64,000 nucleotides of DNA. It comes from an uncultured Planctomycetales bacterium. Its GTDB lineage: Bacteria; Planctomycetota; Phycisphaerae; SM23-33. The stretch covers positions 3,522 to 67,521 of the forward strand of contig CBFCZU010000001.1 in assembly GCA_965602635.1 (NCBI GenBank), read 5' to 3'. The notes beneath the pieces were generated by a model. It was not told where the DNA came from. It made no database searches and worked only from the letters and a program-made list of their open reading frames with translations. How positions within the stretch are numbered: position 1 is the stretch's first letter; each line of letters opens with the position of its first letter. Shown piece after piece: positions 38,195 to 62,586 of the stretch. A program made the position numbers and the translations under genes.

Positions 38195-38268
<74 letters not shown>

Positions 38269-38277
38269 TTTCCGCAA

Positions 38278-38305
38278 GTCCCTGTCAGTCAGGGACTTTC
38301 TCTTT
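38278..38305 (+). terminator. rho-independent terminator after tRNA-Arg
   Basis: GTCCCTG-tcagt-CAGGGAC (7-bp stem) followed by TTTCTCTTT. Confidence 0.6.
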
Positions 38306-38315
38306 GGGCCGGCAG

Positions 38316-39612
38316 CTGTCCTTCCCGAAAACCTCATCCGCACAGGAAGCAACGGCCTTGCGGGCTTGACTGTGGGGCCGGCGGGGATGATCGGCGCGTG
38401 ATCGGAGTGGTCGGCGATGCCGGGGGCGCTTGAGCATGGCCAAATCTGGGCATGGCGCATGGTTCTCTCGTGTGCCAGACGGGACAGGATTGATGCGGGT
38501 CCGCTACGCCGCTCTCGTGTAGCGGTGGTGCAGACCACCGAGATACGCCTTGGCTACGACCTTGCCCTGCGCCGGCGGGCAGACAGGCCGAGTAAACGGC
38601 GAGTTGCGTTCCAGCGACAGGTGCAACCGCGCCTCGTGATAATAGGTGAAGAATTCGGACAGCGTGCGGCGTAGATGATCCTCGTTCAGCACGATCAGGT
38701 GGTCCAGGCATTCACGGCGGATGGATCCGATCAGACGTTCCACGTAGGGATTCTGCCAAGGAGCCCGTGGCGCAATGAGCACTTCCTCGATCCCCATGTG
38801 CTCCACCCGGTCACGGAAGTCCTGGCCGTAGATGCCGTCGCGGTCGCGAAGCAGAAAACGAGGAACTTGGTCGTAAGGAAATGCCTCTACGATCTGCTGA
38901 GCAGCCCACTGGGCGGTGGGGTTGGCCGTCACGTTGAAGTGGACCGCTTGGCGGCGATCATGCCGCAGGATGAGGAAGACGTACAGCACGCGGAACGTCA
39001 CCGTCGGAACCGTGAAGAAGTCGACGGCCGCGATCTGGCGGGCGTGATTCTTCAGGAAGGTTCGCCAGTTCTGGGAAGGCGCCTTGGGCTGTCGGATCAT
39101 GTACTTGGCGACCGTGGATTCGGCCACCGCGTGGCCCAGCAGAAGCAACTCGGATAGAATCCGCGGGGTGCCCCACATCGGGTTCTCGCGAGACATGCTG
39201 ACCTTCTCCACGAATGGTGGGCGCGGAGCTTGTGGTTATCCGGTCATGCTTTCGAACTCGGCGGGGCTGACGTAGCCCAGCGTCTCGGGCTGGACAAGGG
39301 CCAGCGCTGACCGCCAACCTGACCAGAGCCTCGACAGCCAGACCCAGAAGATCCGGTCCCGCGTGCGGAGTTTGGGGCGCTTGACGGAGCGCTGGAGCAC
39401 AGCGATCTAGCGCCGCAGGGCCAGGTTCTCGGCCATTAGTGCGGCACGACCGGCAAAGAAGCCTCGAACGAACAACCACACTGCCTGAAGAACGGCCATC
39501 CCTGAACCTCCGTTGCCGAGATAAACAGCCGGATCCTACGGCCGATGAGGCTCTGCGGCAACGGTGCAAGCCCTTCACCTGCAAGGTGGACGGAGTTTTC
39601 GGGAGGGACAGG
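38316..39612 (-). mobile_element. defective IS481-family insertion sequence (~1.3 kb) with ~20-bp imperfect terminal inverted repeats
   Basis: Right end ctgtccttcccgaaaacctc (38316-38335) matches the reverse complement of the left end (…ggagttttcgggagggacagg ending at 39612), about 17/20. It contains the transposase pseudogene below. It lies 10 bp past the tRNA-Arg terminator. Confidence 0.6.
38504..39436 (-). pseudogene. IS481-family DDE (rve) transposase, disrupted by two in-frame stop codons
   Basis: One reading frame from ATG 39436 to stop 38504: MAENLALRR-TAG-IAVLQRSVKRPKLRTRDRIFWVWLSRLWSGWRSALALVQPETLGYVSPAEFESMTG-TAA-PQAPRPPFVEKVSMSRENPMWGTPRILSELLLLGHAVAESTV… rve core …LGGLHHRYTRAA*. 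The segment between …LVQPE and SRENPMWG looks internally deleted or rearranged. Confidence 0.65.
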
Positions 39613-40182
39613 TGTGCGCTTGGCTCATAGTCGCCCGGCATGGCAGCGGCTCTGGCCCGCCCCTTGGACAATCAAGAAAACCTGCCCAACTCAGGTGATC
39701 ACCCGATTGACAGAAACAGGATTCATGATATGATTCTGTCTCAGTGAGGGGCCTCATTGCCGGGGCCATGCCTACTCGGAGGGTAGTTCCGTCCCGAAGG
39801 GACCAGCTCAATCGCTCAGCGGTGTTGTTGTGCGCTGAGGAGCGGGTCGCTCACCCGCCTTCGCCGACGCTTCGGCGGGCGGGCCTGTTTCGTCAGCCTG
39901 AATCGGCTCAGGGCGGACGGTCCGCGCTGGACTAAACGGCTGGAATGGCCCCCAGCCGGGGAACACGGCAGGCATGAGGACGCTTCGCCCGTGAGAAGCC
40001 GACGCTTGCACGCGGAGCTTTCAGCGATGAAGGCCCACGCCGGTCGTCGGGAGAAGGCCACATGGGGAATGGCGGTTCACCTTAGGCCGGTGCGGTTGGT
40101 GGCGGATTCCGTCCTGGAACTGTCCACAGCGCCGCGGTGTCGCTGCGCCTGACCTATCGGCCGGAGAGAACAGGAGAGGGAG

Positions 40183-41259
40183 ATGGCAACGAGGAGCCTT
40201 GAACTTCGGTTTTGGGGTGGCGCTGCGTTCGTGCTCGCCGTGCTGGCGGGCACTTCCCAGCTCGGCGCGATCAACTACACGGTCACGAAAGTCGCCGACA
40301 GCGGTCAGAGCGTCGTACTAGCGGAAAACCCGTACGGAGAGATTGCCTTCAGTACGAACGGAGTGATGCTGTACTCAGACGGGGAAGTGCATGACGTGGG
40401 GCCCACCCCGCAGTACTACGCCGGTCCGGACATCAACTCCTCCGGCATGGTCGTGTTCTGGGGCTGGCCGGGCGACACTTCCCGGGGCGGGGTCTGGCTG
40501 TATGACCCCGCGGCAGGGACGACGAACATCAGCGACGATCCCACGGCGCGCTATCCCAAGATCAACGATTCGGGGACGATCGTCTGGCAAGAACAGGGCG
40601 GCATCTGGAAGTATCACAACGGTCAGATCGGCTCCGTCGCACCGGACGGAACGGATCCGGAAATCGGCAACGGCGGTCATATCGCGTGGGTAACCGCGGC
40701 GCATAGGTTACAGATCACCGACGGCGTCTCCACAGAGACCTTGCCGCAAACGGTGGTGCACCACTGGAAGGTGAGCATCAACTCATCGGGACAGGCTGCC
40801 TACGCCGCGCAGGAAGGCGGCGGCTACTCCACGTACCTATATGATGGCACCGAGGCCATCCGGGTAGGGAACGGTGGCCAAAGCTGCCCCCAGCCCAAGA
40901 TCAACGACGGGGGAGACGTTCTCTACGCCCTGGAAGATGGGAACGACGATGTCCTTGTCCTGCGCCGCGAATCGGGTGAAGAGGTCGAACTGCACCGATC
41001 AAGCTGGTCAGGGATCAACGGCTTCGACCTGAACAATCTCGGCAACTCCGTCTACTACGCCGACTACTCCAACCTGACCGTCGTGATAGGCCAGGAGCGG
41101 ACCTACCTGCCCGGCTCGGCCTCCTATGTGAACATCAACGACCACAACTTTGTCGCCTGGGCACGAGACGGCGTCTACCTGGCGGTCCCCGAACCCGCCA
41201 CGCTGTCGCTGCTGGCGATTGGGGGGCTGGCACTGATCAGGCGTCGAAGAAGGAAGTAG
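40183..41259 (+). CDS. PEP-CTERM sorting-domain protein (secreted, unknown function)
   Basis: 358 aa; signal peptide; C-terminus …VPEPATLSLLAIGGLALIRRRRRK*. Confidence 0.8.
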   Translation: MATRSLELRFWGGAAFVLAVLAGTSQLGAINYTVTKVADSGQSVVLAENPYGEIAFSTNGVMLYSDGEVHDVGPTPQYYAGPDINSSGMVVFWGWPGDTSRGGVWLYDPAAGTTNISDDPTARYPKINDSGTIVWQEQGGIWKYHNGQIGSVAPDGTDPEIGNGGHIAWVTAAHRLQITDGVSTETLPQTVVHHWKVSINSSGQAAYAAQEGGGYSTYLYDGTEAIRVGNGGQSCPQPKINDGGDVLYALEDGNDDVLVLRRESGEEVELHRSSWSGINGFDLNNLGNSVYYADYSNLTVVIGQERTYLPGSASYVNINDHNFVAWARDGVYLAVPEPATLSLLAIGGLALIRRRRRK

Positions 41260-41502: not shown

Positions 41503-43368
41503 ATGACTACTGCCAGGCTTGCCGGAGTTTCATTGACGCTCCTCCTTCTGAGCCCCTCGACGCTGACAGCCCAGGTCGCACAGGGCGACCCTCTCTGCTT
41601 TGACTCCCAGTGGGGCGCTCTTTTCAAGTACGACATGCAGACAGGAGCCAAGACCCTTATAAGTGGCTACGGGAACGGTCCCGATCTTGTCGGGGATGGA
41701 CCAATCTGGCCCGTAAGCACGCATATCATCTACTCCCGTCAAAGGCTGCACGCGGGTACCGATGGAACCGTGTTCCTAGCGTACAGATCGCAGTTGTATG
41801 CAGTGGATCCAATGACCGGCAACCGCCGGATGTTCGACTTCGGTGGGGACTACAACAACTTAACTTGCTTGTCCGATCCCGCAGATCCCGACAGAGTTTA
41901 CGTCTTCGCCGCGGCTACCTCTACCGCATACGAGAGGCACAGGGACGTCTACGAACTCACCCTATCGACAGGCTCCAAGGTCAAACTGGCAACTGACTTT
42001 ACCATTCCTCCCGACCGGAACCCGGGATGGACTTTCGCCGAGTCCGACCCGAATGGCAGAATCGTTTTCGTCGGTGGCAGGTGGACCGGAAGCGTCGAGC
42101 ACGGGGCTTGGGTCTATGGCAGCCCCACGGGCACCGCCATTCAGCAAATTGACACATGCCCGATGTACAACCTAACGGACATCCACTTTGATTCCACGGG
42201 CAACCGCCTGCTGCTATCAGGCGACTTTGGTATATACGTCTCCCAGCTTGCGCCGGCGGGCGACTACGCGCCAATAGCGCCCATCGACATTCCGACCAAT
42301 GCATTCACAGGGCTTCAGGGCTTGTGCAATAGCGGCGGGCGCTTGTTGGGAATAGATGGTGCGCGCGTCAAGATCGTTGATATTGACGCGAGAACGACTG
42401 TCGATCTACCGAACGGTCCCGGTGTGGGATATGGGTTTGCTGCTCCACCTGGGCGAGGCATCATGAGTGGTTCGACAATACTGGGGGCCGGCGATGGTGA
42501 GTTTCTATGGGTCGATCCCGCGGCCGGCAACACCTGGACGGCGAGCGCCTTATGCCAATCGAACGACAGGATTGCGGGCGAGACTCCTGACTCTATCTAC
42601 TATAAGCAGGGGTACTACCGGGGGCCGGTGACGCGGTACGACAAGGCCACCGGCGAGGAGGAGGAGATCTTCACGCCTTCAGATATGATTACCGGCCTGG
42701 CTATGCTGGACTCGACTCACTTCGCATACACACGCGGGGCCTATGAGACCGGGTGTTTCGTATATGACACGGCTACGCAAACGACTCAAAAGGTTGCATC
42801 GGAGCACCTCTACAATGTCTATCCCGATGGACATGGGGGCATGTACGTTCTGTCGAAGTCGGATGGGTTCCATAAGTGCACGGTCGAGCGGATGTCCGCG
42901 GATGGGCAGGAGAGGGAGGTTGTTTACACGTACGATTCGCCATCGTATAGCGGATTCACGCAGTTCGTCGTTAACGCTGACGAGGAGGTGATCTACTTCG
43001 TGCCACACCGGGAGTTGGCTCTGTATTCTGGGCTCTTGGGCGGCGACACCGCTACTCGGATAAGTGGTTGCGGTGCAAACGACTATGAAAGTCCCTCGGA
43101 GTGGGTCGGAACAGGCCCTTCGTGGGGAGGAGGGCTCGTGCTATATGGCATAGCGGACGGCTTCGCGTATCTGGGTGACTCATATCACAACGGTCTGTTC
43201 AGGGTCGACCTGGCTACCGGAGAACGCGAGCTGCTCTCGGCGACGGAATACTACCGGTGGGTGGCCTTAGACGGGATTTGCACCTACATCCCCGAGCCCA
43301 CCACGCTGTCGCTGCTGGCCCTCGGGGCGGTAACGTTGATCCCCCGCAAGAGACACGCCTTTGTGTGA
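41503..43368 (+). CDS. PEP-CTERM sorting-domain protein (large beta-rich secreted protein)
   Basis: 621 aa; signal peptide MTTARLAGVSLTLLLLSPSTLTAQ; C-terminus …YIPEPTTLSLLALGAVTLIPRKRHAFV*. Confidence 0.8.
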   Translation: MTTARLAGVSLTLLLLSPSTLTAQVAQGDPLCFDSQWGALFKYDMQTGAKTLISGYGNGPDLVGDGPIWPVSTHIIYSRQRLHAGTDGTVFLAYRSQLYAVDPMTGNRRMFDFGGDYNNLTCLSDPADPDRVYVFAAATSTAYERHRDVYELTLSTGSKVKLATDFTIPPDRNPGWTFAESDPNGRIVFVGGRWTGSVEHGAWVYGSPTGTAIQQIDTCPMYNLTDIHFDSTGNRLLLSGDFGIYVSQLAPAGDYAPIAPIDIPTNAFTGLQGLCNSGGRLLGIDGARVKIVDIDARTTVDLPNGPGVGYGFAAPPGRGIMSGSTILGAGDGEFLWVDPAAGNTWTASALCQSNDRIAGETPDSIYYKQGYYRGPVTRYDKATGEEEEIFTPSDMITGLAMLDSTHFAYTRGAYETGCFVYDTATQTTQKVASEHLYNVYPDGHGGMYVLSKSDGFHKCTVERMSADGQEREVVYTYDSPSYSGFTQFVVNADEEVIYFVPHRELALYSGLLGGDTATRISGCGANDYESPSEWVGTGPSWGGGLVLYGIADGFAYLGDSYHNGLFRVDLATGERELLSATEYYRWVALDGICTYIPEPTTLSLLALGAVTLIPRKRHAFV

Positions 43369-43515
43369 GGGAATGGAGGAGGCCGTGGCGTACCGGACGG
43401 CCGCTCAAGTGCTCACGGGTTGTTGTTTGCTGATGAGCGGGCCGCTCAGCCCTTTCGTCAGCTGGAGTGAGAGAGTGTGTGCGTCGTGCGGATGCAATAG
43501 GAGAGGAGCGGGACG

Positions 43516-46500
43516 ATGAAAAGGCAAGTTGCGGCGATGTGTGCTGCTGGGCTGGTCTTGGCCTTGGGTTCGGCGGCAACGGCGACAGTGAACATCGAGA
43601 CCGTCGCCGTGGGCAACGCGGGCAATGCGCCGGACACAAGGTATGAGACGCCCGGCTATGGGGCGGTGAGCTACGAGTACAACATCGGCAAGTACGAGGT
43701 GACGGCCGGGCAGTACACCGAGTTCCTCAACGCCGTGGCGGCCACAGATACCTATGGTCTGTACAGCGGGCGTATGGCCCTGCCAGTGGCCCCGGACAAG
43801 GGCTGCAACATCCAGCGCGGCGGCAACCCGGGCAGCTACACGTACAGCCTGGCTGTCGACTGGGCGGACCGCCCGGTGAACTTCGTGAGCTGGGGCGACG
43901 CGGCGCGATTCGCCAACTGGCTGCACAACGGCCAACCGACCGGGGCGCAGGACCTGACCACGACGGAGGACGGGGCGTACTACCTTAACGGCGCCACGGG
44001 CGGTGGGCTCCTGCTGGCCGTCAGCCGCGAGGCGGACTGGACGTGGGCGATCCCGACCGAGGATGAGTGGTACAAGGCGGCCTACTACGACCCGGAGACA
44101 GCCAGCTACTACGACCATCCGACGAGCAGCCACACCCGGCCGGGCTACGTGAACGACAGCGGCAACCTGAGCGGGACGGGGAATCCCTTCGTGGAAGGGG
44201 GAACGGACCCCGGCGGCTACGCGACGTGGGACGGTGACGGCGGGACCGACGGGATCGGGATCCCCTACTACCGCACCGTAGTCGGGGAATGGGAGAACTC
44301 GGACAGCCCCTACGGCACGTTCGACCAGGGGGGCAACGTCTGGGAATGGAACGAGGCCTTCCCGTACGGTCGCGGCTTGCGGGGCGGGTCGTTCCTCAAC
44401 TCCGGCGACTTCCTGCGCGCGTCGTACCGGGGCTCGCGCGACCCGACGGACGAGGATATGAACTTCGGCTTCCGCGTTTCCGATGTCCCCGAACCCGCCA
44501 CACTGTCGCTGCTAGCGCTGGGCGGGCTGGCGTTGATCCGCCGGAGGCGGCGCGGGCTGCTGCCCGTGCTGGTGGTAGCGGCGATCGCCGTGGCGGCACT
44601 AGGGTTGGCAACGCCATGTCAGGCGGGGGGCGACTGGGTCATAAGGCCGATCGCCTCGGACCTGGTGGGCGATGCGGCGGTCGCCGTAGACAGTCAGGGG
44701 AATCCACATGTCGCATGGAGCTGCTTCACCGGGACTGGCTGGGGTGGCGACAAAGAGGAGTGGCAGTACAAGTACGCAAGGTGGGACGGCTCGAGCTGGC
44801 AAACGACGCAGTTCACTGCCCTCGCCACGCACCGGAGCAGGGACACATCGCTGGTCGTAGACGGCCAGGACAGGCCGCACATGGCTTTTTATGTCTACGA
44901 TCGGAACACTGCCATGAGCCGGCTCGTCTATGTCACGCCCGGCAGCGGCGGCGCGTGGTTGACCGAGGACGTCTTCAGCGGCCCAAGCGGGTCGGGCGCT
45001 GACCCAGATCTGGCCCTGGACAGCCAGGGGCGGCCGCACATCAGCCACGTGGGCCGGTACTCCCGCTTCGACGGGACCCAATGGCAGACGGAGGACGCTT
45101 GGCCGATCGGTTTCCGCAATAGCCTGGCCCTCGATGCCCAGGACACCCCCCACGTGGCATCGCCCGACGGTATGTACGGGTACCCCAGCTACGGCACCAA
45201 GCACCAAGGCCAATGGACCCAGACCTTCATCGTGACCCCGACAGATGCCTGGGGAATGTCCATCGACCTCGATGCCCAAGACAAGCCCCACGTTGCCTGG
45301 TGGGACTCGTCCAAGGCCGTGCCGGCGTACAGCTGGGACACGGGAAGTGGATGGGACACGGAATGGATCCCCGATCAGCACCACAGCAGCTTCGGCAGCA
45401 AGGGCGTCTCCCTGGAGCTGGACGACCAAGGCCGGGCCCACATCGCCTACAGGAGGTTCTACTCCTCCACGTCCAAAGACGCGGCGTATGCCGTGTGGGA
45501 CGGCGCATCGTGGCATCTCGACACGATCGCAGAGGATAGGTACGTCGTGGGTAAGAACTCCCTCGCGCTCGGGCTGGCCGGAGACGCCCATGTCCTCATC
45601 GGCGAGGTAACCGGGAGCATAAGCGGCGAATTCTATCACGCCTACATCCCCGAGCCCGCCACGCTGTTGCTGCTGGGCCTTGGTGCGGCGGTGCTTCTCG
45701 GCAGGCGCAGGCGTCGGGCAGCGTGGGTACCTGTGCTTGCGGCCTGCGCGGCGCTTTCGTGGCTCTCCCCATTGACAGCATCCGGTGCAACCCCCCGCTT
45801 TCAGCCGTTGGGCCATTTGGCATCGGGGCATGACGAGAGTCATGCGCACGGGGTCTCTGACGACGGTTCCACTGTCGTCGGGTCCAGCCGAGAATCTGAG
45901 TCGGAGGCCTTCCGTTGGACGGAGGAAACCGGGATGCTGCCCTTGTCGGGGGGGCGAAGTGCAGCACTGGCCGCGTCAGCGGACGGGTCCGTCGTGGTGG
46001 GCTTCCGTTGGGGCTTGTCCTCGACCGGCCAAGCGTTCCGCTGGACCGAAGAAAGCGGGACGGTGTTCTTGCCTGACCTCCCCTCTCCCCTACCGAGGAG
46101 CTGGGCCTACGACGTGTCGGCCGATGGATCAGTGGTAGTGGGGAAGAGCAACACTGATTACGATGACTCCAGTTTGCAGAATAGCGAGGCGTGGCGCTGG
46201 ACGGCCGAAGCGGGCACGGTCGGGCTCGGCGATCTGCCGGGGTGGAGATTCGACAGCATAGCCAGAGGCGTCTCGGCCGATGGTTCCGTGGTGGTGGGGC
46301 AGGGAGTCACTGGCGTCCCTTCGAAGGGCTCGCTGGCCTTTCGCTGGACCCAGGAAACCGGAATGGTGCCGTTGGGCGACCTGCCGGGGAGCCGTAGCAC
46401 CGTGGACGACAACAGTTATGCCTTTGGTGTGTCGGCCGATGGTCTGGTGGTGGTTGGCCACGGCAGCACCGACCAGGACAAAGAGGCCTTTCGCTGGACG

Positions 46501-46749
46501 GCCGCTACCGGCATGGTCGGGCTCGGTGACTTCCCCGGCGGGACTGTCCAGAGCAGCGCGTATGCTGCGTCGGGAGATGGGTCGAGAGTCGTCGGCTTCG
46601 GTGCCGCCGCCTCGGGCGTGAGGGCCGCCATCTGGGACGCCGGCCACGGCATGCGCGACTCGGGGACCTGCTTGTCAACGACTACGGCCTGGACCTCACC
46701 GGCTGGACGCTCAAGGAAGCTCACGACATCACCCCCGACGGTACAGTAA
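43516..46749 (+). CDS. fused tandem PEP-CTERM modules in one ORF: FGE-sulfatase (SUMF1-like) module, beta-propeller-repeat module, HAF-repeat module (C-terminus frameshifted)
   Basis: 1077 aa without a stop. Module 1 (43516-44553): signal peptide; FGE-sulfatase motifs (…VNFVSWGDAARFANWL…, …GNVWEWNE…, …RGGSFLNS…, …GFRVSDV…); then PEPATLSLLALGGLALIRRRRR. Module 2 (44554-45717) starts directly with GLLPVLVVAAIAVAALGLATPCQAGG, holds ~7 repeats of …DxQGxPHxAW…W.G..W…, and ends …IPEPATLLLLGLGAAVLLGRRRRR. Module 3 (45718-46749) starts directly with AAWVPVLAACAALSWLSPLTASGA and holds HAF-family repeats (…EAFRWTEETGM…GVSADGSVVVG…). The frame is lost near 46655. Confidence 0.6.
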   Translation: MKRQVAAMCAAGLVLALGSAATATVNIETVAVGNAGNAPDTRYETPGYGAVSYEYNIGKYEVTAGQYTEFLNAVAATDTYGLYSGRMALPVAPDKGCNIQRGGNPGSYTYSLAVDWADRPVNFVSWGDAARFANWLHNGQPTGAQDLTTTEDGAYYLNGATGGGLLLAVSREADWTWAIPTEDEWYKAAYYDPETASYYDHPTSSHTRPGYVNDSGNLSGTGNPFVEGGTDPGGYATWDGDGGTDGIGIPYYRTVVGEWENSDSPYGTFDQGGNVWEWNEAFPYGRGLRGGSFLNSGDFLRASYRGSRDPTDEDMNFGFRVSDVPEPATLSLLALGGLALIRRRRRGLLPVLVVAAIAVAALGLATPCQAGGDWVIRPIASDLVGDAAVAVDSQGNPHVAWSCFTGTGWGGDKEEWQYKYARWDGSSWQTTQFTALATHRSRDTSLVVDGQDRPHMAFYVYDRNTAMSRLVYVTPGSGGAWLTEDVFSGPSGSGADPDLALDSQGRPHISHVGRYSRFDGTQWQTEDAWPIGFRNSLALDAQDTPHVASPDGMYGYPSYGTKHQGQWTQTFIVTPTDAWGMSIDLDAQDKPHVAWWDSSKAVPAYSWDTGSGWDTEWIPDQHHSSFGSKGVSLELDDQGRAHIAYRRFYSSTSKDAAYAVWDGASWHLDTIAEDRYVVGKNSLALGLAGDAHVLIGEVTGSISGEFYHAYIPEPATLLLLGLGAAVLLGRRRRRAAWVPVLAACAALSWLSPLTASGATPRFQPLGHLASGHDESHAHGVSDDGSTVVGSSRESESEAFRWTEETGMLPLSGGRSAALAASADGSVVVGFRWGLSSTGQAFRWTEESGTVFLPDLPSPLPRSWAYDVSADGSVVVGKSNTDYDDSSLQNSEAWRWTAEAGTVGLGDLPGWRFDSIARGVSADGSVVVGQGVTGVPSKGSLAFRWTQETGMVPLGDLPGSRSTVDDNSYAFGVSADGLVVVGHGSTDQDKEAFRWTAATGMVGLGDFPGGTVQSSAYAASGDGSRVVGFGAAASGVRAAIWDAGHGMRDSGTCLSTTTAWTSPAGRSRKLTTSPPTVQ

Positions 46750-46751
46750 TC

Positions 46752-47375
46752 GTGGGCTGGGGCATCAATCCTGCTGGCGATCACGAGGCTTGGCGTGCCG
46801 TCATTCCCGAACCCGCCACGCTGTCGCTTCTGGCCCTCGCCGGTCTGGACGGCGTTTTTGCGCCGTCGGTGGGGAACTATGGCCGAGGGTTTCTTGCGGC
46901 TTACGGCAGCTGCGACGTCGAGGTGACCTACAACGTCGGCGACGAGACAATCGAGGGCGCCTGGGCGGTGCTCATGGGCTCCTTGTACCAGGACGACTCC
47001 GATGCGGGGCTGGCCGAGGGCCATTTCAAGGACGTTACGATCCTTCTCAACGATGCGCAGGGGCAGGCCCTACTAGAGGGATCCGTCCCTTCGCTCTACC
47101 TCCGCGAGCTGACCGACGCCGAGGGTGTGCTGGTCGGCACCGGGCTCCTGGAGATCACCGACGGCGACCTGGCCAGACGGTTTCCCTATGTCGAAGGCAA
47201 CTTCCTGGACGTCCACATCGAGCTTGACCCGCCGGAGATCGACGGCTTCGGGCAGAGCTTCGGTGGGGTATGCGAGTTGACGATCCGCCCGATCCCCGAG
47301 CCCGCCACGCTGGCGTTGCTGGCGGTTGGCGGTCTGGCTCTGATTCGGCGTCGCAAGAGACACGCCTTTGTGTGA
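46752..47375 (+). CDS. frameshifted continuation of module 3 plus a fourth domain; carries one degenerate internal and one terminal PEP-CTERM
   Basis: GTG-started ORF …GWGINPAGDHEAWRAVIPEPATLSLLALAGLDGVFAPSVG… (a PEP motif whose TM/Arg tail has been replaced) … ending …IRPIPEPATLALLAVGGLALIRRRKRHAFV*. Upstream in this frame the sequence reads DLLVNDYGLDLTGWTLKEAHDITPDGTVIV, the expected end of the HAF module. Confidence 0.55.
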   Translation: MGWGINPAGDHEAWRAVIPEPATLSLLALAGLDGVFAPSVGNYGRGFLAAYGSCDVEVTYNVGDETIEGAWAVLMGSLYQDDSDAGLAEGHFKDVTILLNDAQGQALLEGSVPSLYLRELTDAEGVLVGTGLLEITDGDLARRFPYVEGNFLDVHIELDPPEIDGFGQSFGGVCELTIRPIPEPATLALLAVGGLALIRRRKRHAFV

Positions 47376-47535
47376 GGGAATGGAGGAGGCCGTCGGGTAC
47401 CGCACGGCCGCTCAAGTGCTCAGCGGTGTTGTTGTGCGCTGAGGGAACGGGGCGCTCGCCTGTTCCGTTGGCCTTGACAAGAAGATGCGCGCCGCGTGCA
47501 ACATGCGGCCTGTCAGGCAGAAAGGGAGCGGAGCG

Positions 47536-48690
47536 ATGAAGGCAGACCGGATAGGTCGTTTGGCGATGTTGGTGGTGTGCGCAGCCGCCGGATCGGCGTT
47601 CGCGTCTGGATTCCCCCACACCACGGACACGCTCTCCGAGGCGCGGTACTACTTGTCCGCCACCACGGTGGGCAGCAAGGCCATTTTCGCTGGCGGGGCC
47701 GCCTCGACCGGCTACAGCGACGTTGTCGACATTTACGACGCCGACGCGGGCCTGTGGTCCACGGACACACTCTCCCAGGGGCGGTATTACCTGTCCGCCA
47801 CGTCGGTGGGGAACAAGGCGATCTTCGCGGGCGGATTCACCGGCCCGCCAGGCGCGATCCCCAGCAACGTGGTGGACATCTACGACGCCAGCACGGGCCT
47901 GTGGACCACGGACACGCTGTCAAAGGCGCGAGGCATAATGGCCGCGACGACGGTCGGCAGCAAGGCCATCTTCGCAGGGGGATACGTAGACGGCGTCGAG
48001 GGCTACAGCGATGTCGTGGACATCTACGATGCCGATACCGGCCTGTGGTCCACGGATACGCTCTCGCAGGCACGCTGTTATCTCGCCGCGACGACAGCAG
48101 GCGGCAAAGCCATCTTCGCGGGGGGCAGCGGTGACAGTGATGTGGTCGACATCTACGACCCCGATACAGGCTTGTGGTCGACGGACGCACTGTCGCAAGG
48201 GCGGCACTGGCTGGCGGCAACTGCGGTAGGCGACAAGGCGATTTTCGCCGGCGGGGCCATTGGTGACAGCGCCTACAGTGACGTCGTGGACATCTACGAT
48301 GCCGTCACAGGGCTGTGGTCCACGGACACGCTCTCGCAAGCGCGAGGTTATCTTGCTGCGACATCACTGGACGGCAAGGCGATGTTTGCAGGAGGCAACG
48401 GCCCCAGCGATGTCGTGGATATTCTCGATCCGGGCACGGGGCAGTGGACCACGGACGCGATCTCGCAGGGGCGATACTATCTATCCGCGACGACCGTGGG
48501 CGACATGGCGTTCTTTGCCGGTGGCGCTACTGGACCTGGACCTGACCCCAGCGGCTACAGCAACGTCGTGGACATCTACACTATTCCAGAACCGGCCACG
48601 CTCGCCCTGCTGGCCTTGGGCGGTCTATCGCTGATCCGGCGAAGGAAGAGCGGAGGAGGGTTGTTCCGCTCTATCGCTCAGCGAAGTTGA
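47536..48690 (+). CDS. Kelch-repeat PEP-CTERM protein
   Basis: Start MKADRIGRLAMLVVCAAAGSAFA. Eight ~40-aa Kelch-like repeats (…ARYYLSATTVGSKAIFAGG…SDVVDIYDADAGLWSTDTLSQ…). C-terminus …IPEPATLALLALGGLSLIRRRKSGGGLFRSIAQRS*. Confidence 0.8.
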   Translation: MKADRIGRLAMLVVCAAAGSAFASGFPHTTDTLSEARYYLSATTVGSKAIFAGGAASTGYSDVVDIYDADAGLWSTDTLSQGRYYLSATSVGNKAIFAGGFTGPPGAIPSNVVDIYDASTGLWTTDTLSKARGIMAATTVGSKAIFAGGYVDGVEGYSDVVDIYDADTGLWSTDTLSQARCYLAATTAGGKAIFAGGSGDSDVVDIYDPDTGLWSTDALSQGRHWLAATAVGDKAIFAGGAIGDSAYSDVVDIYDAVTGLWSTDTLSQARGYLAATSLDGKAMFAGGNGPSDVVDILDPGTGQWTTDAISQGRYYLSATTVGDMAFFAGGATGPGPDPSGYSNVVDIYTIPEPATLALLALGGLSLIRRRKSGGGLFRSIAQRS

Positions 48691-48716
48691 TGTGCGCTGA
48701 GGGAACGGTCGCGGGC

Positions 48717-51823: not shown

Positions 51824-51860
51824 GTACCTGCAAGGTGGACGGGGTCTCCGGGAGGGACAA
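51824..51860 (+). repeat. diverged partial copy of the IS481-like left-end repeat
   Basis: acctgcaaggtggacggggtctccgggagggacaactacc matches the terminal ~37 bp of the 182-bp IS end (39576-39612 / 62550-62586). Confidence 0.45.
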
Positions 51861-54827
51861 CTACCTGGTGGACTTTCCGGTGACCGATATGTCCAGTACG
51901 AGCGGAGTGTACGGCTTCATCTTGACCCAGGCGCGGACGGGTTTGATGGTGGCGGTGCGCTTGAGGCTGTAGGGGTTGACGGTCTTGAAGTCCCGCTGGA
52001 GCGCGACCAGCAGGCTGGTCTTGATGGCCACGTCGCCGAAGCTGAGCGTGGAGGTCTCCTTGTCGCTCTTCAGGTCGGCGCTGCGCCTGACGGCGGGGAA
52101 GAAGCTAAAGATCACCGGCTCGTCGCCTTTTACGTCCAGTACACGGACCGTCACTCGCGCGGCCGTGGGCGAGATCACCTGGACCTCCAGGCGGGCCGTG
52201 AAGGTGTCGAACTCCAGCACGACCTCGTGGCCCTCGTCGGTCCGCTCCACGCGCCCCGCGGTGGGCATGTAGAAGGTTCGGCCTTTCACCTTGCGGTGGA
52301 ACGAGCCCGCCTCGGCCTGCTGTTGCGAGTTGGAGGCAGCGAGAATCGTGCCCGCGCCGCGGTGATACAGCTCGACGGCGTTCTGCGGGTCCACCCAGTA
52401 CATCCGCTCGACGATGGGGTCGATCGACAGGGCGTTGAGCCCGTAGACGAATCCGTCGCGCCGCGCGATCAGGCCCTGGCCGTCGAGGAAGGTGAATTCC
52501 GCGCGGTTGGGCATTGGCTCTTCGTCGCCGGGCTTGAAGTAGACGGCGTTTTCCGCCGTTCGGAACCAGTATTCCGGACTGGACGCGCTGGGGCGGCTGG
52601 CCGAGCGTATGCGCCGGGCGGCGCGAACGCGGGCCAGGTGTCGCCCGCGCGCCGACAGCGACAGCACGAAGTCGCCATGGGTAAACGGGTTTGCCCAGAT
52701 CACCCTGCCGTCGTGCAGCAGCGTCAGGTTCCCGGTCGGCAGGGAAGTGTGACACGAGAACTCCACGCATCGGGCCAGGCTCGGCAGGACGCTCTTGTCG
52801 GCGCTCTGCCAGTAGTACTCGCCCAGCGCGTTCATGGTCAGCCAGGTGTAATGCGTAGCCGGCACGACACGCCGCTCGGGGAAGTGCCCGTCCCGCTCAT
52901 GGGCAGCCATTGCGCGCATCTCCCTCCGGCCCAGCTCTCGCCACTTGGCGTTGTCAAGCACGACGCCGCCCGTATAGACGTTGGCTGCGTGGTAGGCGTA
53001 GTGGTTCGTGCCCGTGCCGGTCTCCGAGCTGAAGCGAGACGTCCGATTGCTCACCGGCGTTATCCAGACGGTGATCGTCGCCTCGACCAGTTCGCCCAGC
53101 CGGCGTCGCCAGTAGGCTGCCTGCTCGGCAGGCACGTCGTTCTTGAGCAGCTCGTATGTCTGGAGATAGCCCTGCAGGTGTCGGTTGGGCGGGTGCTCCA
53201 ACTGCTCGTACCAGATGGCTGGGTCGAGCGCCGCTTCCATGCCCGCCGCAGCCGAGGCCAGCATTCGCTTGTCGCCGCGATGCGGGTTCTCGGGCCAGTC
53301 GGACTTGTAGACCAGGGCGAACGGGTAGCACGCCCCGTAGCTCCATTCACTTGCGCGGAGCCTGCCGGATCGGCCAATCGAGCGATACCGTCCGTCGCCG
53401 GCCTGGATAATGTGGTAGAAGTTGCACGCGTCTGCCAGGCCCGCCCGATAGAGGGAAAGCGTTTTCAACTCGTCGATGCCCTTGCGGAACTTGTCCCACG
53501 CAGTTCGCTTCTGGGCGACGGCGCACCAGTGCTCGGCCGCTATGTCGATCGCGCCGCCATCGCCGCCGCCCGCCTTGGCCGCGGCGTAGAGATGCAGCTC
53601 GCCCTCCTTGGCACCCGACAGCTCGATCGACACCTTGCTCTTGCCGGGCATCAGCTTCTGGACCGCCCGCCCGACGCTACGATTGCCCTGCACGGCCTCG
53701 AGCGTAACCTCCGCGCCCGCCGGATCGGCGATCGCCAGCCAGAGGGCCACCTCGATGGGCCCGGCCTCGTCTGCCGTGAACGGCTTGCCCGTCTCGATGA
53801 CCAGCGGACGGGCGACCTCGGCACGATAGCTGGCGACTTTGTGCCCTTCCGCGTCCGTGATCTCGATGGCGGCCGAGCCATGGCGCTCGATCCGGGCTAT
53901 CGCCAAGCCGTCATCGCCGACGGGCACGGGGGCGCCGTTTACCCTCATGGTGCAGCCGGCCCGCCAGTTGATCAGCTTCAGCTTGCTGGACCCGACCGCC
54001 AGCGAGACAGGAAGCCGCAGCGCCGCGGATGCGGGCGGCGCTTCGTCCACCACGTCCACTCGCCCCAGGCGCGTCGGGCGGTGGGCCCAGCCGCCCCACA
54101 GATCGCGCCACGCGAAGTGCGAACCGTCGGCAGGGCGGTTACGCATGACGTTGGCGTAGAAGCGACCTTCCGGCACGCCGAGCGTCTTCATGGGCAGCGC
54201 CGCAACCATCCACCAGCCCCGCTTATCGACGCCCGCCCGAACGCGGATAGATGTCGGGTCGATTGGCTCGATAACGCCCAGTTGGTCGCGCCGGGCGCAC
54301 GGGCGAAGATACCGCAGGACGGCTGCCCTGCCTCCGGCGTTGACCTGCACGTTGACGTACGGATAAGCCGGCTTCTGCGAGTTGGTCAGCAGGACCTCAA
54401 GCGAGTCCGCTTGCCACACCTCCTGCGAGGCAGACGCCAGCAGTTCGGTGGCCTCGGCCTCCCACGCCCTATGGCCGCCCGTGCCGCGCACGATGGTGTC
54501 CGGCGTGGGGTCCAGGCACCGCGCCGCCAAGTAAAGCACCGACTCGTGCACCACCACGCGAATGTCCGTGGCCCTGTTAGCCGGCTCGGGCCTGCCTCTC
54601 GAGAACAGGCGCCCAAGCGGCTTGGCCTGCTTCCAGACGGGGTCGCCCATTGGCTCGTCGCCGTCCAACGCCGGCGCCTTGTCCACGCGCAGCACATGCC
54701 CCGCAGGGCTGTCGCACCAGACGGGCCCGGCGCCGGAGACGCCCTGGCCCCAAACGGTAGAGATCAACCATAGAACCGTTACCGCCGCCGCCACTGCGGA
54801 TTCATTGCGCATGATCGCCTCCATCAT
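51861..54827 (-). CDS. secreted polysaccharide-lyase-like protein (heparinase II/III-like core with CBM9-like N-domain), paralog 1
   Basis: ~988 aa from MMEAIMRNESAVAAAVTVLWLISTVWGQG (signal peptide). Shares long blocks with the paralog at 57753-60704 (YRAGLADACNFYH / YRAGLADAINYYR; WPENPHRGDKRML / WPENPYKGDKRFL; GTGTNHYAYH / GTGTNVFSHY; DPQNAVELYH / DPQNAIEIHH). The family name is tentative. Confidence 0.55.
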   Translation of the reverse strand: MMEAIMRNESAVAAAVTVLWLISTVWGQGVSGAGPVWCDSPAGHVLRVDKAPALDGDEPMGDPVWKQAKPLGRLFSRGRPEPANRATDIRVVVHESVLYLAARCLDPTPDTIVRGTGGHRAWEAEATELLASASQEVWQADSLEVLLTNSQKPAYPYVNVQVNAGGRAAVLRYLRPCARRDQLGVIEPIDPTSIRVRAGVDKRGWWMVAALPMKTLGVPEGRFYANVMRNRPADGSHFAWRDLWGGWAHRPTRLGRVDVVDEAPPASAALRLPVSLAVGSSKLKLINWRAGCTMRVNGAPVPVGDDGLAIARIERHGSAAIEITDAEGHKVASYRAEVARPLVIETGKPFTADEAGPIEVALWLAIADPAGAEVTLEAVQGNRSVGRAVQKLMPGKSKVSIELSGAKEGELHLYAAAKAGGGDGGAIDIAAEHWCAVAQKRTAWDKFRKGIDELKTLSLYRAGLADACNFYHIIQAGDGRYRSIGRSGRLRASEWSYGACYPFALVYKSDWPENPHRGDKRMLASAAAGMEAALDPAIWYEQLEHPPNRHLQGYLQTYELLKNDVPAEQAAYWRRRLGELVEATITVWITPVSNRTSRFSSETGTGTNHYAYHAANVYTGGVVLDNAKWRELGRREMRAMAAHERDGHFPERRVVPATHYTWLTMNALGEYYWQSADKSVLPSLARCVEFSCHTSLPTGNLTLLHDGRVIWANPFTHGDFVLSLSARGRHLARVRAARRIRSASRPSASSPEYWFRTAENAVYFKPGDEEPMPNRAEFTFLDGQGLIARRDGFVYGLNALSIDPIVERMYWVDPQNAVELYHRGAGTILAASNSQQQAEAGSFHRKVKGRTFYMPTAGRVERTDEGHEVVLEFDTFTARLEVQVISPTAARVTVRVLDVKGDEPVIFSFFPAVRRSADLKSDKETSTLSFGDVAIKTSLLVALQRDFKTVNPYSLKRTATIKPVRAWVKMKPYTPLVLDISVTGKSTR

Positions 54828-62386: not shown

Positions 62387-62586
62387 TCATAACCCGGAGG
62401 TCGCGGCCATTAGTGCGGCACGACCGGCAAAGAAGCCTCGAACGAACAACCACACTGCCTGAAGAACGGCCATCCCTGAACCTCCGTTGCCGAGATAAAC
62501 AGCCGGATCCTACGGCCGATGAGGCTCTGCGGCAACGGTGCAAGCCCTTCACCTGCAAGGTGGACGGAGTTTTCGGGAGGGACAGG
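62387..62586 (+). repeat. third tRNA-Met-like att-like core (62387-62406) abutting a solo copy (62405-62586) of the 182-bp left end of the IS at 39431-39612
   Basis: 62405-62586 appears identical to 39431-39612, including the transposase ATG on the minus strand, which is truncated after a few codons here. Confidence 0.65.

What the first reader, a model, noticed from the sequence alone, without database searches (positions are those of the whole stretch)
46600..47445. Frameshift inside a G-run, a degenerate internal PEP motif, and a 70/73-identical 3' cassette shared by two different PEP-CTERM genes
(1) The HAF module loses frame at ~46655 (gactcggggacctg; one extra G would read DSGDLLVNDYGLDLTGWTLKEAHDITPDGTVIVGWGINP…, the expected HAF end). 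(2) The continuation (46752-47375) has a PEP motif whose TM/Arg tail has been replaced (PEPATLSLLALAGLDGVFAP…) and runs into a fourth domain ending with a proper PEP-CTERM. (3) The last ~8 codons (…RKRHAFV*) plus ~50 bp downstream are 70/73 identical between 43341-43413 and 47348-47422, although the upstream proteins are unrelated. The start contexts of the genes at 43516 and 47536 are also similar (ggagcgg[g/a][a]cgATGaa). Together this points to recombination between the conserved PEP-CTERM-encoding ends shuffling modules in this island.
Basis: seen in the sequence. Interest (0 to 1): 0.6.

Follow-up and report, generated by a model that had tools for sequence, protein, structure and literature searches.

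The report
Decaying end of a multi-protein secretion gene
The flagged spot is the broken 3' end of one long gene that strings several complete surface proteins together, each with its own export and anchoring signals. The break itself is an ordinary fixed one-base deletion, but the in-frame stringing of such proteins appears to be undescribed.

Summary
All three observations are real.

1. **Frameshift.** The HAF module loses frame at about 46657-46660. Every public contig of this population that reaches the site carries the same break, so it is not a read or assembly error. Thirty of 31 HAF homologues have Leu, Val or Ile where frame 0 gives Ser. The lost base is therefore most likely a C in GA(C)CTC, just upstream of the GGGG run. 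There is no slippery site, so I read it as a fixed inactivating deletion.

2. **Degenerate PEP motif (46803-46847).** This is a fusion scar. The end of the membrane helix, the Arg cluster, a signal peptide and a few residues of the next domain are missing. The next domain belongs to an unnamed ~150-aa all-beta family that normally sits just before a PEP-CTERM tag.

3. **Shared 3' cassette.** It is 71/76 identical between the two genes. It is the best-preserved pair of a four-copy hairpin element found only in this island. The pair flanks the big gene as direct repeats 4,007 bp apart. One population variant carries a 44-nt deletion inside it.

The larger point is that ORF 43516-47375 is an in-frame chain of complete PEP-CTERM proteins. 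Each Arg cluster doubles as the start of the next signal peptide. 44 of the 120 top homologues show the same junction, and I found no literature on it. Recombination at gene ends is plausible but not proven.

The parts
39775..39850 (+). Orphan copy of the island's intergenic hairpin element (hairpin GCTCAGCG-N11-CGCTGAG at 39814-39839). It lies upstream of PEP-CTERM gene g1 (40183-41259) and downstream of a sigma-70-like promoter match (39707-39734).
   Evidence: (D12)
43288..43368 (+). PEP-CTERM variant and tail of gene g2 (41503-43368): IPEPTTLSLLALGAVTLIPRKRHAFV*
   Evidence: (TIGR02595, 17.2 bits against a 16-bit cutoff)
43345..43420 (+). 3' cassette, copy A. It comprises the last 8 codons (RKRHAFV*) plus 52 nt downstream. 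The rest of the intergenic region, to about 43451, is homologous at lower identity and holds a degenerate copy of the hairpin element.
   Evidence: (D13, 93%)
43516..43584 (+). N-terminal signal peptide of the multi-module ORF (MKRQVAAMCAAGLVLALGSAATA|TV)
   Evidence: Its position relative to the first conserved FGE motif matches other N-terminal modules.
43585..44484 (+). Module 1 passenger: FGE-sulfatase (SUMF1-like) domain
   Evidence: PF03781, E 1.1e-19, aa 53-321
44485..44553 (+). Internal PEP-CTERM 1, complete: VPEPATLSLLALGGLALIRRRRR
44554..44625 (+). Internal signal-peptide-like segment 1 (GLLPVLVVAAIAVAALGLATPCQA|GG). The preceding RRRRR serves as its n-region.
   Evidence: Standalone homologues P0227 and P0228 have an N-terminal signal peptide at this point.
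44626..45645 (+). Module 2 passenger: BNR_4-like beta-propeller
45646..45717 (+). Internal PEP-CTERM 2, complete: IPEPATLLLLGLGAAVLLGRRRRR
45718..45786 (+). Internal signal-peptide-like segment 2 (AAWVPVLAACAALSWLSPLTASG|ATPRFQPLG)
   Evidence: Standalone HAF genes have N-terminal signals before the F-Q/L-P/T-L-G start.
45787..46659 (+). Module 3 passenger: HAF repeats, read in frame 0
   Evidence: TIGR02913, E 5.9e-23; D7, D10 repeats
46657..46660 (+). Most likely site of the 1-nt deletion: ancestral GAC CTC, now GACTC.
46660..46749 (+). Out-of-frame tail (SGTCLSTTTAWTSPAGRSRKLTTSPPTVQ) and TAA stop of the 1077-aa product
46659..46802 (+). Intact end of the HAF module in the -1 frame (LGDLLVNDYGLDLTGWTLKEAHDITPDGTVIVGWGINPAGDHEAWRAV)
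46803..46847 (+). Degenerate internal PEP motif (IPEPATLSLLALAGL), a fusion scar. It lacks the rest of the TM helix and the Arg cluster, and no signal peptide follows.
   Evidence: (D3)
46848..47294 (+). Module 4: an unnamed ~150-aa all-beta domain of a family that normally lies directly before a PEP-CTERM tag. Here it is truncated by a few N-terminal residues.
47292..47375 (+). Terminal PEP-CTERM with tail: IPEPATLALLAVGGLALIRRRKRHAFV*
47352..47427 (+). 3' cassette, copy B. Positions 47368-47411 are deleted in population variant L062.
47418..47443 (+). Hairpin GCTCAGCGGTGTTGTTGTGCGCTGAG of the intergenic element that follows module 4
48583..48710 (+). PEP-CTERM of the Kelch gene g5 (47536-48690), followed by a fourth copy of the element. 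A ~22-nt deletion relative to the cassette removed the usual stop, so the ORF reads into the hairpin (48676-48701).

Best explanation
The finding is the decaying 3' end of a multi-module exosortase-substrate gene (43516-47375).

**Modules 1-3.** Each module is a complete secreted-protein unit consisting of a passenger domain followed by a PEP-CTERM tag (PEP motif, TM helix, Arg cluster). The passengers are an FGE-sulfatase domain, a BNR_4-like propeller and HAF repeats. The units are joined in frame so that the Arg cluster of one tag is immediately followed by a hydrophobic segment and a small-x-small site. Together these form the signal peptide of the next unit.

**Inferred mechanism.**
- The PEP-CTERM helix acts as a stop-transfer segment, with its N-terminus outside and its C-terminus inside the cell.
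- The Arg cluster stays in the cytoplasm.
- The next helix re-initiates Sec export.
- Signal peptidase I and exosortase then release each passenger, leaving small TM-Arg-TM hairpins in the membrane.

**Module 3 to module 4 junction.** Here a deletion fused the start of the HAF tag directly to the body of a small pre-PEP-CTERM beta-domain protein. The helix end, the Arg cluster and the signal peptide were lost.

**Frameshift.** Later, a 1-nt deletion in the HAF module became fixed in this population. It was most likely a C lost from GAC-CTC at 46657-46660. Translation now stops at 46749. The HAF end, module 4 and the last tag are a recent, still intact-looking remnant.

**3' cassette.** The cassette is the best-conserved pair of a four-copy hairpin element that follows or precedes the island's genes. 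The pair brackets the multi-module gene as direct repeats, which fits recombination or gene conversion at gene ends.

**Shown:** the anatomy, the reality of the frameshift, the homologies and the recurrence of the junction type. **Inferred:** processing, inactivation and recombination history.
For: Anatomy.

The frameshift is fixed and reproducible. Five loci at 99.9% identity, carrying 7-24 SNPs each, show none at the site. Further contigs agree.

Indel position: 30 of 31 homologues have Leu, Val or Ile where frame 0 gives Ser.

There is no X XXY YYZ slippery heptamer at GAC UCG GGG ACC.

Population SNPs, in tiny numbers: 2 of 2 are synonymous in the 3.2 kb upstream of the shift, and 2 of 2 are non-synonymous in the 0.62 kb downstream. 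Further non-synonymous variants appear in P0121 and P0218.

The junction type recurs:
- 44 of the 120 best homologues carry 68 internal PEP-TM-Arg -> hydrophobic -> AxA junctions.
- Internal FGE modules are preceded by a hydrophobic segment at the same distance as N-terminal ones (median 13.5 versus 12 aa). A small-x-small site is present in 58/60 internal and 47/47 N-terminal modules.
- One example lies on a 4.63-Mb contig.

Modules are autonomous elsewhere:
- The closest relatives of module 2, P0227 and P0228, are standalone signal + propeller + PEP-CTERM proteins.
- The module 4 family has 87 hits. Many are ~200-215-aa proteins built as signal + domain + PEP-CTERM.

Fusion scar: homologues read ..NATYLDSTFSPTGGxHGLGxL, and the window reads PEPATLSLLALAG-LDGVFAPSVGNYGRGFL.

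Cassette.

PEP-CTERM topology (PEP motif at the periplasmic face, basic cluster in the cytosol): Haft et al. 2006, PMC1569441.
Against: No protein-level data exist. Cleavage by signal peptidase or exosortase at internal sites is untested, and no exosortase gene lies in the window.

The junction architecture is a minority form. It was found in 0 of 120 module-2 family hits, 3 of 86 module-4 family hits, and none of 56 loci with HAF genes. The 44/120 figure comes from a score-ranked list that favours multi-module proteins.

All sequences carrying the frameshift are about 99.9% identical. Its age, and selection on the downstream part, therefore cannot be measured.

The downstream frame is still fully open for 282 codons, and a GTG lies 2 nt after the stop. 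Some expression of module 4 cannot be excluded.

The SNP contrast (2 versus 2) is not significant.
Confidence: 0.65

Rival explanations
1. The frameshift is a sequencing or assembly error in a short homopolymer, and the gene is really one intact 1286-aa ORF.
For: The site lies next to a CC and a GGGG run. A homopolymer-length difference (T5 versus T4 at 37034) does exist between assemblies of this population.
Against: The same frameshifted product is found in at least 9 contigs from ENA, JGI, NCBI and Logan. These were assembled independently with SPAdes, MEGAHIT and other tools, and none varies at the site.
Confidence: 0.03
2. The shift is bypassed in vivo, so that module 4 with its PEP-CTERM tag is still made. 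The bypass could be programmed -1 frameshifting, or termination-reinitiation at the GTG 2 nt after the TAA stop.
For: The -1 frame is intact over 282 codons and ends in a perfect PEP-CTERM tag. The shift is fixed in the population. TAA (46747-46749) is followed by an in-frame GTG at 46752.
Against: There is no slippery heptamer and no Shine-Dalgarno-like sequence before GTG 46752. A product starting there would lack a normal signal peptide, because its n-region is acidic. HAF relatives are unshifted single frames. The only SNPs downstream of the shift are non-synonymous.
Confidence: 0.1
3. The shared 3' cassette is conserved because it is a functional element that serves the island's genes, such as a terminator, a leader RNA or a protein-binding site. 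On this view it does not reflect recent recombination or gene conversion, and it says nothing about module shuffling.
For: There are four copies, all intergenic or at gene ends within this island. The hairpin occurs 3 times exactly where 0.68 matches are expected by chance. The three substitutions in the 76-nt core all fall in the apical part of a first hairpin, and both versions still fold. One copy lies downstream of a strong promoter match.
Against: - The most identical part includes 8 codons of two otherwise unrelated genes.
- No U-tract follows the hairpins.
- Fold z-scores are modest, from -1.5 to -2.9.
- Rfam finds nothing there.
- A population variant lacks 44 nt of the core, and the copy in gene g5 lacks ~22 nt.
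- Only a 64-kb window of this genome could be searched.
Confidence: 0.3
4. The in-frame PEP-CTERM -> signal junctions are accidental fusions of neighbouring genes and have no working processing. The long ORF is then a dead or misfolding product, not a functional polyprotein.
For: The architecture is rare in unbiased family samples. This very gene is decaying at its 3' end. Such genes sit next to mobile elements.
Against: 68 junctions in 44 diverged proteins keep the frame. They also keep a tight spacing between the Arg cluster and the hydrophobic segment, and a small-x-small site at the normal distance from the mature start. Junction units are themselves tandemly duplicated in some proteins, for example five times in P0001. 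The two SNPs within the window's first 3.2 kb are synonymous.
Confidence: 0.15

Closest known systems
PEP-CTERM / exosortase (EpsH, XrtA) protein sorting (TIGR02595, PF07589; Haft et al. 2006, PMC1569441)
   Same: The tripartite tag (PEP motif, TM helix, Arg cluster) is present and scores above the family cut-offs. The passengers (HAF repeats, FGE-sulfatase, small beta domains) are typical cargo. The genes are clustered.
   Different: The family is defined as a C-terminal tag on proteins that mostly come from single-gene operons. Here two complete tags are internal and are followed in frame by a signal peptide and another cargo. A third tag is a truncated scar.
Viral envelope glycoprotein polyproteins (flavivirus, bunyavirus GPC) with alternating stop-transfer anchors and internal signal peptides cut by signal peptidase (for example PMC7926653)
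   Same: The inferred logic is the same. One ORF carries alternating TM segments, which put successive ectodomains on the same side of the membrane. Resident membrane proteases then release them.
   Different: There is no homology. This is a bacterial chromosome. The second protease would be an exosortase rather than a viral or host protease. Nothing here has been shown experimentally.
Ordinary frameshift pseudogene in a tandem surface-protein gene family
   Same: A single-base deletion is fixed in the population, there is no recoding signal, and the downstream frame is not yet degraded.
   Different: The deletion truncates only the last units of a multi-unit ORF. The upstream units keep their own export and anchoring signals and may be unaffected.
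Integron gene cassettes with attC sites
   Same: An imperfect inverted-repeat element lies at the 3' end of successive, unrelated, same-strand genes.
   Different: There are no R''/R' core sites (RYYYAAC/GTTRRRY). No integron integrase is present, only an rve_3 fragment. The genes have their own start contexts.

Membership tests
PEP-CTERM sorting domain (TIGR02595 / PF07589) | PEP motif followed by a hydrophobic helix and a basic cluster, scoring above the curated cut-off | tested here: met
   Three stretches in the repaired ORF are detected (aa 323-345, 711-734 and the C-terminus). Scores are TIGR02595 66.1 bits against a 16-bit cutoff and PF07589 46.4 bits against 20.7. Genes g1 and g5 are also above the cut-offs, and g2 is marginal at 17.2 bits.
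PEP-CTERM sorting domain (TIGR02595 / PF07589) | The tag lies at the extreme C-terminus of the protein | tested here: not met
   Tags 1 and 2 are followed by 731 and 343 further residues of the same ORF. Only the tag at 47292-47375 is terminal, and it is now cut off by the frameshift.
PEP-CTERM sorting domain (TIGR02595 / PF07589) | The motif at 46803-46847 is a PEP-CTERM domain | tested here: not met
   Neither HMM reports it. It has PEP plus 11 hydrophobic residues, and then Asp-Gly with no basic cluster.
PEP-CTERM / exosortase system | An exosortase (EpsH/Xrt) gene is present in the same genome | not testable with these tools
   None was found among the window's genes. The rest of the genome (GCA_964461575.1) could not be read.
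HAF repeat protein (TIGR02913) | HAF repeats above the cut-off and the conserved C-terminal block GMRxLxDxL..(D/E)YGLDLxGW...IVG.G.NP.G..EA | tested here: met
   80.5 bits against a 22.65-bit cutoff. The C-terminal block is present but split between two frames.
FGE-sulfatase / SUMF1 domain (PF03781) | Domain match above the gathering score | tested here: met
   71.5 bits against a 23.3-bit cutoff, aa 53-321. Catalytic competence was not assessed.
Programmed -1 ribosomal frameshift | A slippery heptamer X XXY YYZ at the shift site | tested here: not met
   The sequence is GAC UCG GGG ACC. No heptamer of the required form lies in the 0 frame.
Programmed -1 ribosomal frameshift | The shift is conserved in diverged relatives | tested here: not met
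   All 31 diverged HAF C-termini examined are in a single frame. The only sequences with the shift are ~99.9% identical to the window.
Intrinsic (Rho-independent) terminator | A G+C-rich hairpin followed by a U-tract | tested here: not met
   The hairpins at 47418-47443, 39814-39839 and 48676-48701 are followed by GGGAACGG.., not by T runs. The one terminator-like hit at 46838-46854 owes its T5 run to Val-Phe codons of a conserved motif.
Integron gene cassette / attC | R''/R' core sites and a nearby IntI integrase | tested here: not met
   No RYYYAAC...GTTRRRY pair is present in the four aligned copies. The only integrase-like gene is an rve_3 fragment.
Secretory polyprotein with internal signal peptides (functional analogy only) | Cleavage at internal signal peptides that releases separate mature proteins | not testable with these tools
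   Only sequence features are available: a hydrophobic segment plus a small-x-small site at the normal distance from the mature start.

The most novel reading that the evidence does not exclude
Some Planctomycetota encode 'exosortase polyproteins'. These are single ORFs in which two to six complete surface proteins are concatenated through a PEP-CTERM tag and signal peptide hairpin. The ORF is threaded through the Sec channel as alternating stop-transfer and re-start segments. Exosortase and signal peptidase I then cut it into separately anchored products. The conserved junction-coding DNA would double as the recombination substrate that duplicates, swaps and deletes modules. The window would then show one such gene caught with a fusion scar, a fixed frameshift and flanking repeat cassettes. 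I found no description of this architecture in the searchable literature.
Probability: 0.45. Interest if true: 0.75.

Novelty: new variant of a known kind. Interest (0 to 1): 0.55.

Why it matters
If the in-frame junctions are processed as inferred, bacteria would have a polyprotein route for exporting several surface proteins from one ORF. That logic is otherwise known from viral glycoprotein precursors.

Such genes would provide natural internal PEP-CTERM substrates for working out where and how exosortase cuts, which is still poorly defined.

They also matter for annotation. Gene callers and family models label these ORFs by one domain only (for example 'SUMF1/EgtB/PvdO family enzyme') and treat PEP-CTERM as strictly C-terminal.

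The frameshift, the fusion scar and the unstable cassette show how such arrays gain and lose modules.

The frameshift on its own is an ordinary lineage-specific pseudogenisation.

Tried and rejected
- **Integron attC reading of the repeated element:** rejected. It has no core sites and no IntI integrase.
- **Terminator-like hairpin plus T5 at 46838-46854, on the fusion point:** rejected as coincidence. The T run encodes the conserved Val-Phe of the module-4 family.
- **Small ORF inside the cassette (MEEAV[A/G]YRTAAQVL..):** two of its three differences are synonymous, but there is no usable ribosome-binding-site spacing and too few sites. Not pursued.
- **Sigma-54 or Haft-type upstream motifs:** these are described only for Proteobacteria. 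No convincing -24/-12 match was seen by eye.
- **Rfam on 38-50 kb:** found only tRNA-Arg.
- **DNA scan of metagenome contigs with the cassette core:** 0 hits. The collection evidently lacks this organism.
- **Genome-contig scan:** found no close relative. Best HAF identity was 52%, and no locus had module 4 behind HAF. The three apparent long matches are tandem separate HAF genes.
- **Word-indexed homologue search for module 4:** found only itself. The exhaustive search was needed.
- **Single-sequence AlphaFold of module 4:** useless at pLDDT 42.6. With an alignment it reached pLDDT 95.5.
- **Foldseek against PDB:** no significant match. The top weak hits are Lpt beta-jellyrolls at E 0.24.
Full report
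**Setting.**
The window has about 65% G+C and an ordinary planctomycete-type gene content: a MoxR/BatA/VWA operon, ABC transporters, GH20 and PhoH. Between 40183 and 48690 lies a same-strand cluster of PEP-CTERM genes:
- g1 (40183-41259);
- g2 (41503-43368);
- a 1077-aa ORF (43516-46749) followed immediately by a 207-aa ORF (46752-47375);
- a Kelch gene, g5 (47536-48690).

The cluster follows tRNA-Arg(ACG) at 38195-38268 and an rve_3 integrase fragment. G+C is somewhat lower there.

**Observation 1, the frameshift.**
Frame 0 reads ...AIWDAGHGMRDSGTCLSTTT...TVQ* and stops at 46747-46749. The -1 frame, open from 46530, continues with LGDLLVNDYGLDLTGWTLKEAHDITPDGTVIVGWGINPAGDHEAWRAVIPEP..., which is the canonical end of a HAF protein. 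The break is real.

Several results show it is not a reading error:
- The exact 1077-aa product, including its out-of-frame tail, is encoded on contigs from three ENA assemblies, one NCBI MAG (GCA_964461575.1) and one JGI metagenome.
- These loci are 99.89-99.96% identical to the window. They differ from it at 7-24 positions each, none of them at the shift.
- Four further cluster members and locus L062 show the same tail.

I compared 31 distinct HAF C-termini from the fetched loci and homologues. In the block GMRx-L-xDxL..(D/E)YGLDLxGW, the position that frame 0 reads as Ser (TCG) is Leu in 26, Val in 3, Ile in 1 and never Ser. The -1 frame supplies Leu (CTC, 46659-46661) at that position. The switch must therefore lie upstream of it. 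The ancestral sequence was most likely GAC CTC GGG GAC CTG (MRDLGDLL), and one base of GA(C)C was lost. Both repairs give the same length.

The site GAC UCG GGG ACC contains no X XXY YYZ heptamer, and no diverged relative is shifted. I conclude that this is a fixed single-base deletion. Population SNPs point the same way but are too few to carry weight. Two of two are synonymous in the 3.2 kb before the shift, and two of two are non-synonymous in the 0.62 kb after it. Further amino-acid variants of the downstream ORF exist in other samples.

**Observation 2, the degenerate PEP motif, and what the ORF really is.**
With one base restored, the ORF (1286 aa) contains:
- an FGE-sulfatase domain;
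- a BNR_4-like propeller;
- HAF repeats;
- three PEP-CTERM stretches above the curated cut-offs, at aa 323-345, 711-734 and the C-terminus.

The first two tags are complete and internal. Each Arg cluster is followed directly by a hydrophobic segment and a small-x-small site:
- RRRRR-GLLPVLVVAAIAVAALGLATPCQA|GGDW;
- RRRRR-AAWVPVLAACAALSWLSPLTASG|ATPRFQPLG.

The next passenger domain then begins.

The closest relatives of module 2, P0227 and P0228 (41-44% identity over 99% of the query), are standalone proteins. They have an N-terminal signal peptide at exactly this point and a terminal PEP-CTERM tag. Standalone HAF genes likewise begin with a signal peptide before the ..F-Q/L-P/T-L-G.. start. 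Each module is thus a full precursor whose Met and n-region have been replaced by the preceding tag's Arg cluster.

This arrangement is not peculiar to the window.
- Among the 120 best homologues of the repaired ORF, 44 carry at least one such junction, 68 in all. One protein carries five.
- In FGE modules, the hydrophobic segment ends a median of 12 aa before the first conserved motif when the module is N-terminal (n=52). The median is 13.5 aa when the module is internal (n=61).
- A small-x-small site is present in 47/47 N-terminal and 58/60 internal modules.
- One example lies on a 4.63-Mb contig.

The ranked list favours multi-module proteins, so 44/120 is not a prevalence. In less biased samples the architecture is rare:
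- 0 of 120 module-2 family hits;
- 3 of 86 module-4 family hits;
- none of 56 loci with HAF genes.

Published PEP-CTERM topology puts the PEP motif at the periplasmic face and the basic cluster in the cytoplasm (Haft et al. 2006, PMC1569441). Given that, two hydrophobic segments per junction place both neighbouring passengers outside the cell. The natural reading is a polyprotein threaded as alternating stop-transfer and re-start segments, then cut by exosortase and signal peptidase I. This step is inference.

I found no description of internal PEP-CTERM tags or of such polyproteins in the searchable literature. Haft et al. instead stress that these genes mostly sit in single-gene operons.

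The third junction (46803-46847) is different. It reads IPEPATLSLLALAGL and then DGVFAPSVGNYGRGFL..., with no Arg cluster and no signal segment, and the HMMs do not call it.

The 149 aa that follow (46848-47294) had no word-indexed homologue other than themselves. The exhaustive search found 87 relatives. Many are proteins of ~200-215 aa built as signal peptide + this domain + PEP-CTERM. Others carry the domain as the last domain before the tag on large proteins.

The family has no Pfam or NCBIfam model for its body. With a 48-sequence alignment it folds as an all-beta domain with mean pLDDT 95.5. It has no significant PDB match.

Homologues read ..NATYLDSTFSPTGGxHGLGxL where the window reads ..LALAG-LDGVFAPSVGNYGRGFL. 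The fusion therefore removed four things: the end of the HAF tag's helix, its Arg cluster, a signal peptide and a few residues of the mature domain. At DNA level, similarity to the other tag-coding segments stops at GGTCTGG|ACGGCG (family D3).

**Observation 3, the 3' cassette.**
- 43345-43420 and 47352-47427 are 71/76 identical, with a 42-nt exact run. This stretch covers the last eight codons (RKRHAFV*) of two otherwise unrelated genes and about 52 nt beyond them.
- Identity is 68% over the tag-coding part upstream and 91-93% in the core. It decays to noise by about 43455/47465. The start contexts agree at 14/18, which is little more than GGAG plus ATG.
- The downstream half belongs to an element with four copies in the island: upstream of g1, after g2 (degenerate), after module 4, and at the end of g5. 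Its hairpin GCTCAGCG-N11-CGCTGAG occurs three times exactly where 0.68 matches are expected, and nowhere else in the 64 kb.
- In g5, a ~22-nt deletion relative to the cassette removed the stop codon, so the ORF reads into the hairpin.
- One population variant (L062, ERZ25073495, 3x coverage) lacks 44 nt of the core (47368-47411), again removing the stop.
- The two best copies are direct repeats 4,007 bp apart that bracket the whole multi-module gene.

These facts fit repeated rearrangement or gene conversion at gene ends. They do not exclude that the element is kept by selection as a terminator-like or leader structure. Both hairpin versions fold, and the three core substitutions lie in the apical part of the first hairpin. 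Against a terminator role, no U-tract follows, fold z-scores are modest and Rfam has no match. Whether the element occurs genome-wide could not be tested, because the one DNA scan that might have answered it returned nothing.

**Verdict.**
The observations hold, with the indel moved a few bases upstream of the G-run. It remains an inference, because no related genome with a different module order was found.

The frameshift is ordinary gene decay. The interesting part is the architecture in which it sits: an in-frame chain of exosortase substrates joined by tag-plus-signal hairpins, which recurs in dozens of planctomycete proteins and appears to be undescribed.

Noticed in passing
window 38195-39235: tRNA-Arg(ACG) at 38195-38268 (+) is followed by an rve_3 integrase-core fragment at 38504-39211 (-). 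G+C drops from ~0.70 to ~0.61-0.66 over 38-50 kb. The PEP-CTERM cluster therefore sits in an island-like stretch next to a tRNA gene.
   Followed up: partly
window 39427-39612, 62401-62586 and 51826-51859: A 186-nt repeat is 99% identical between two sites 23 kb apart, with a 34-nt partial third copy. Its nature is unknown. All four public contigs that extend that far end at window position 56749, which suggests a repeat boundary there.
   Followed up: no
window 37034: A T5/T4 homopolymer-length difference exists between assemblies of the same population, inside the sodium:solute symporter gene. The window and L005 give a 587-aa product, and L001-L003 give a 390-aa call. It is either a real polymorphism or an assembly error. 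The HAF shift site, by contrast, is invariant.
   Followed up: partly
window 46848-47294 (and P0122-P0207): An unannotated ~150-aa all-beta domain family sits directly before PEP-CTERM tags. It occurs both as ~200-aa standalone proteins and as the last domain of large proteins. The AlphaFold model with a 48-sequence alignment has pLDDT 95.5. No Pfam or NCBIfam body model exists and no significant PDB fold match was found. The top weak hits are Lpt beta-jellyrolls.
   Followed up: partly
window 47620-48548: The Kelch PEP-CTERM gene g5 is built of seven tandem units of ~129-147 nt, 68-83% identical at DNA level.
   Followed up: no
window 39707-39734: A strong sigma-70-like promoter match (TTGACA-16-TATGAT, 11/12, with TG) lies just upstream of the orphan copy of the hairpin element and ~450 nt before g1.
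   Followed up: no
window 51861-54811 (-) and 57753-60704 (-): Two ~983-aa ORFs have no Pfam match and share patches of ~70% DNA identity. They are probably paralogues of unknown function.
   Followed up: no
window 47380-47442 and 43373-43519: A short ORF begins inside the cassette (MEEAV[A/G]YRTAAQVL...). Two of the three differences between the copies are synonymous in this frame. There are too few sites and no proper ribosome-binding-site spacing, so it is probably meaningless.
   Followed up: no
L063 6001-8586 (ENA ERZ25039495 contig_3253, 4.63 Mb): Another multi-module FGE/PEP-CTERM ORF with two internal junctions. It is flanked by IS21, IS110, group II intron and Mu-like transposase genes, so such genes may tend to lie in mobile-element-rich regions.
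   Followed up: partly
P0227-P0346 (homologues of module 2): The same BNR_4-like propeller carries a PEP-CTERM tag in planctomycete relatives and a T9SS type A C-terminal domain in other phyla. This is an example of sorting-tag exchange on one passenger.
   Followed up: no
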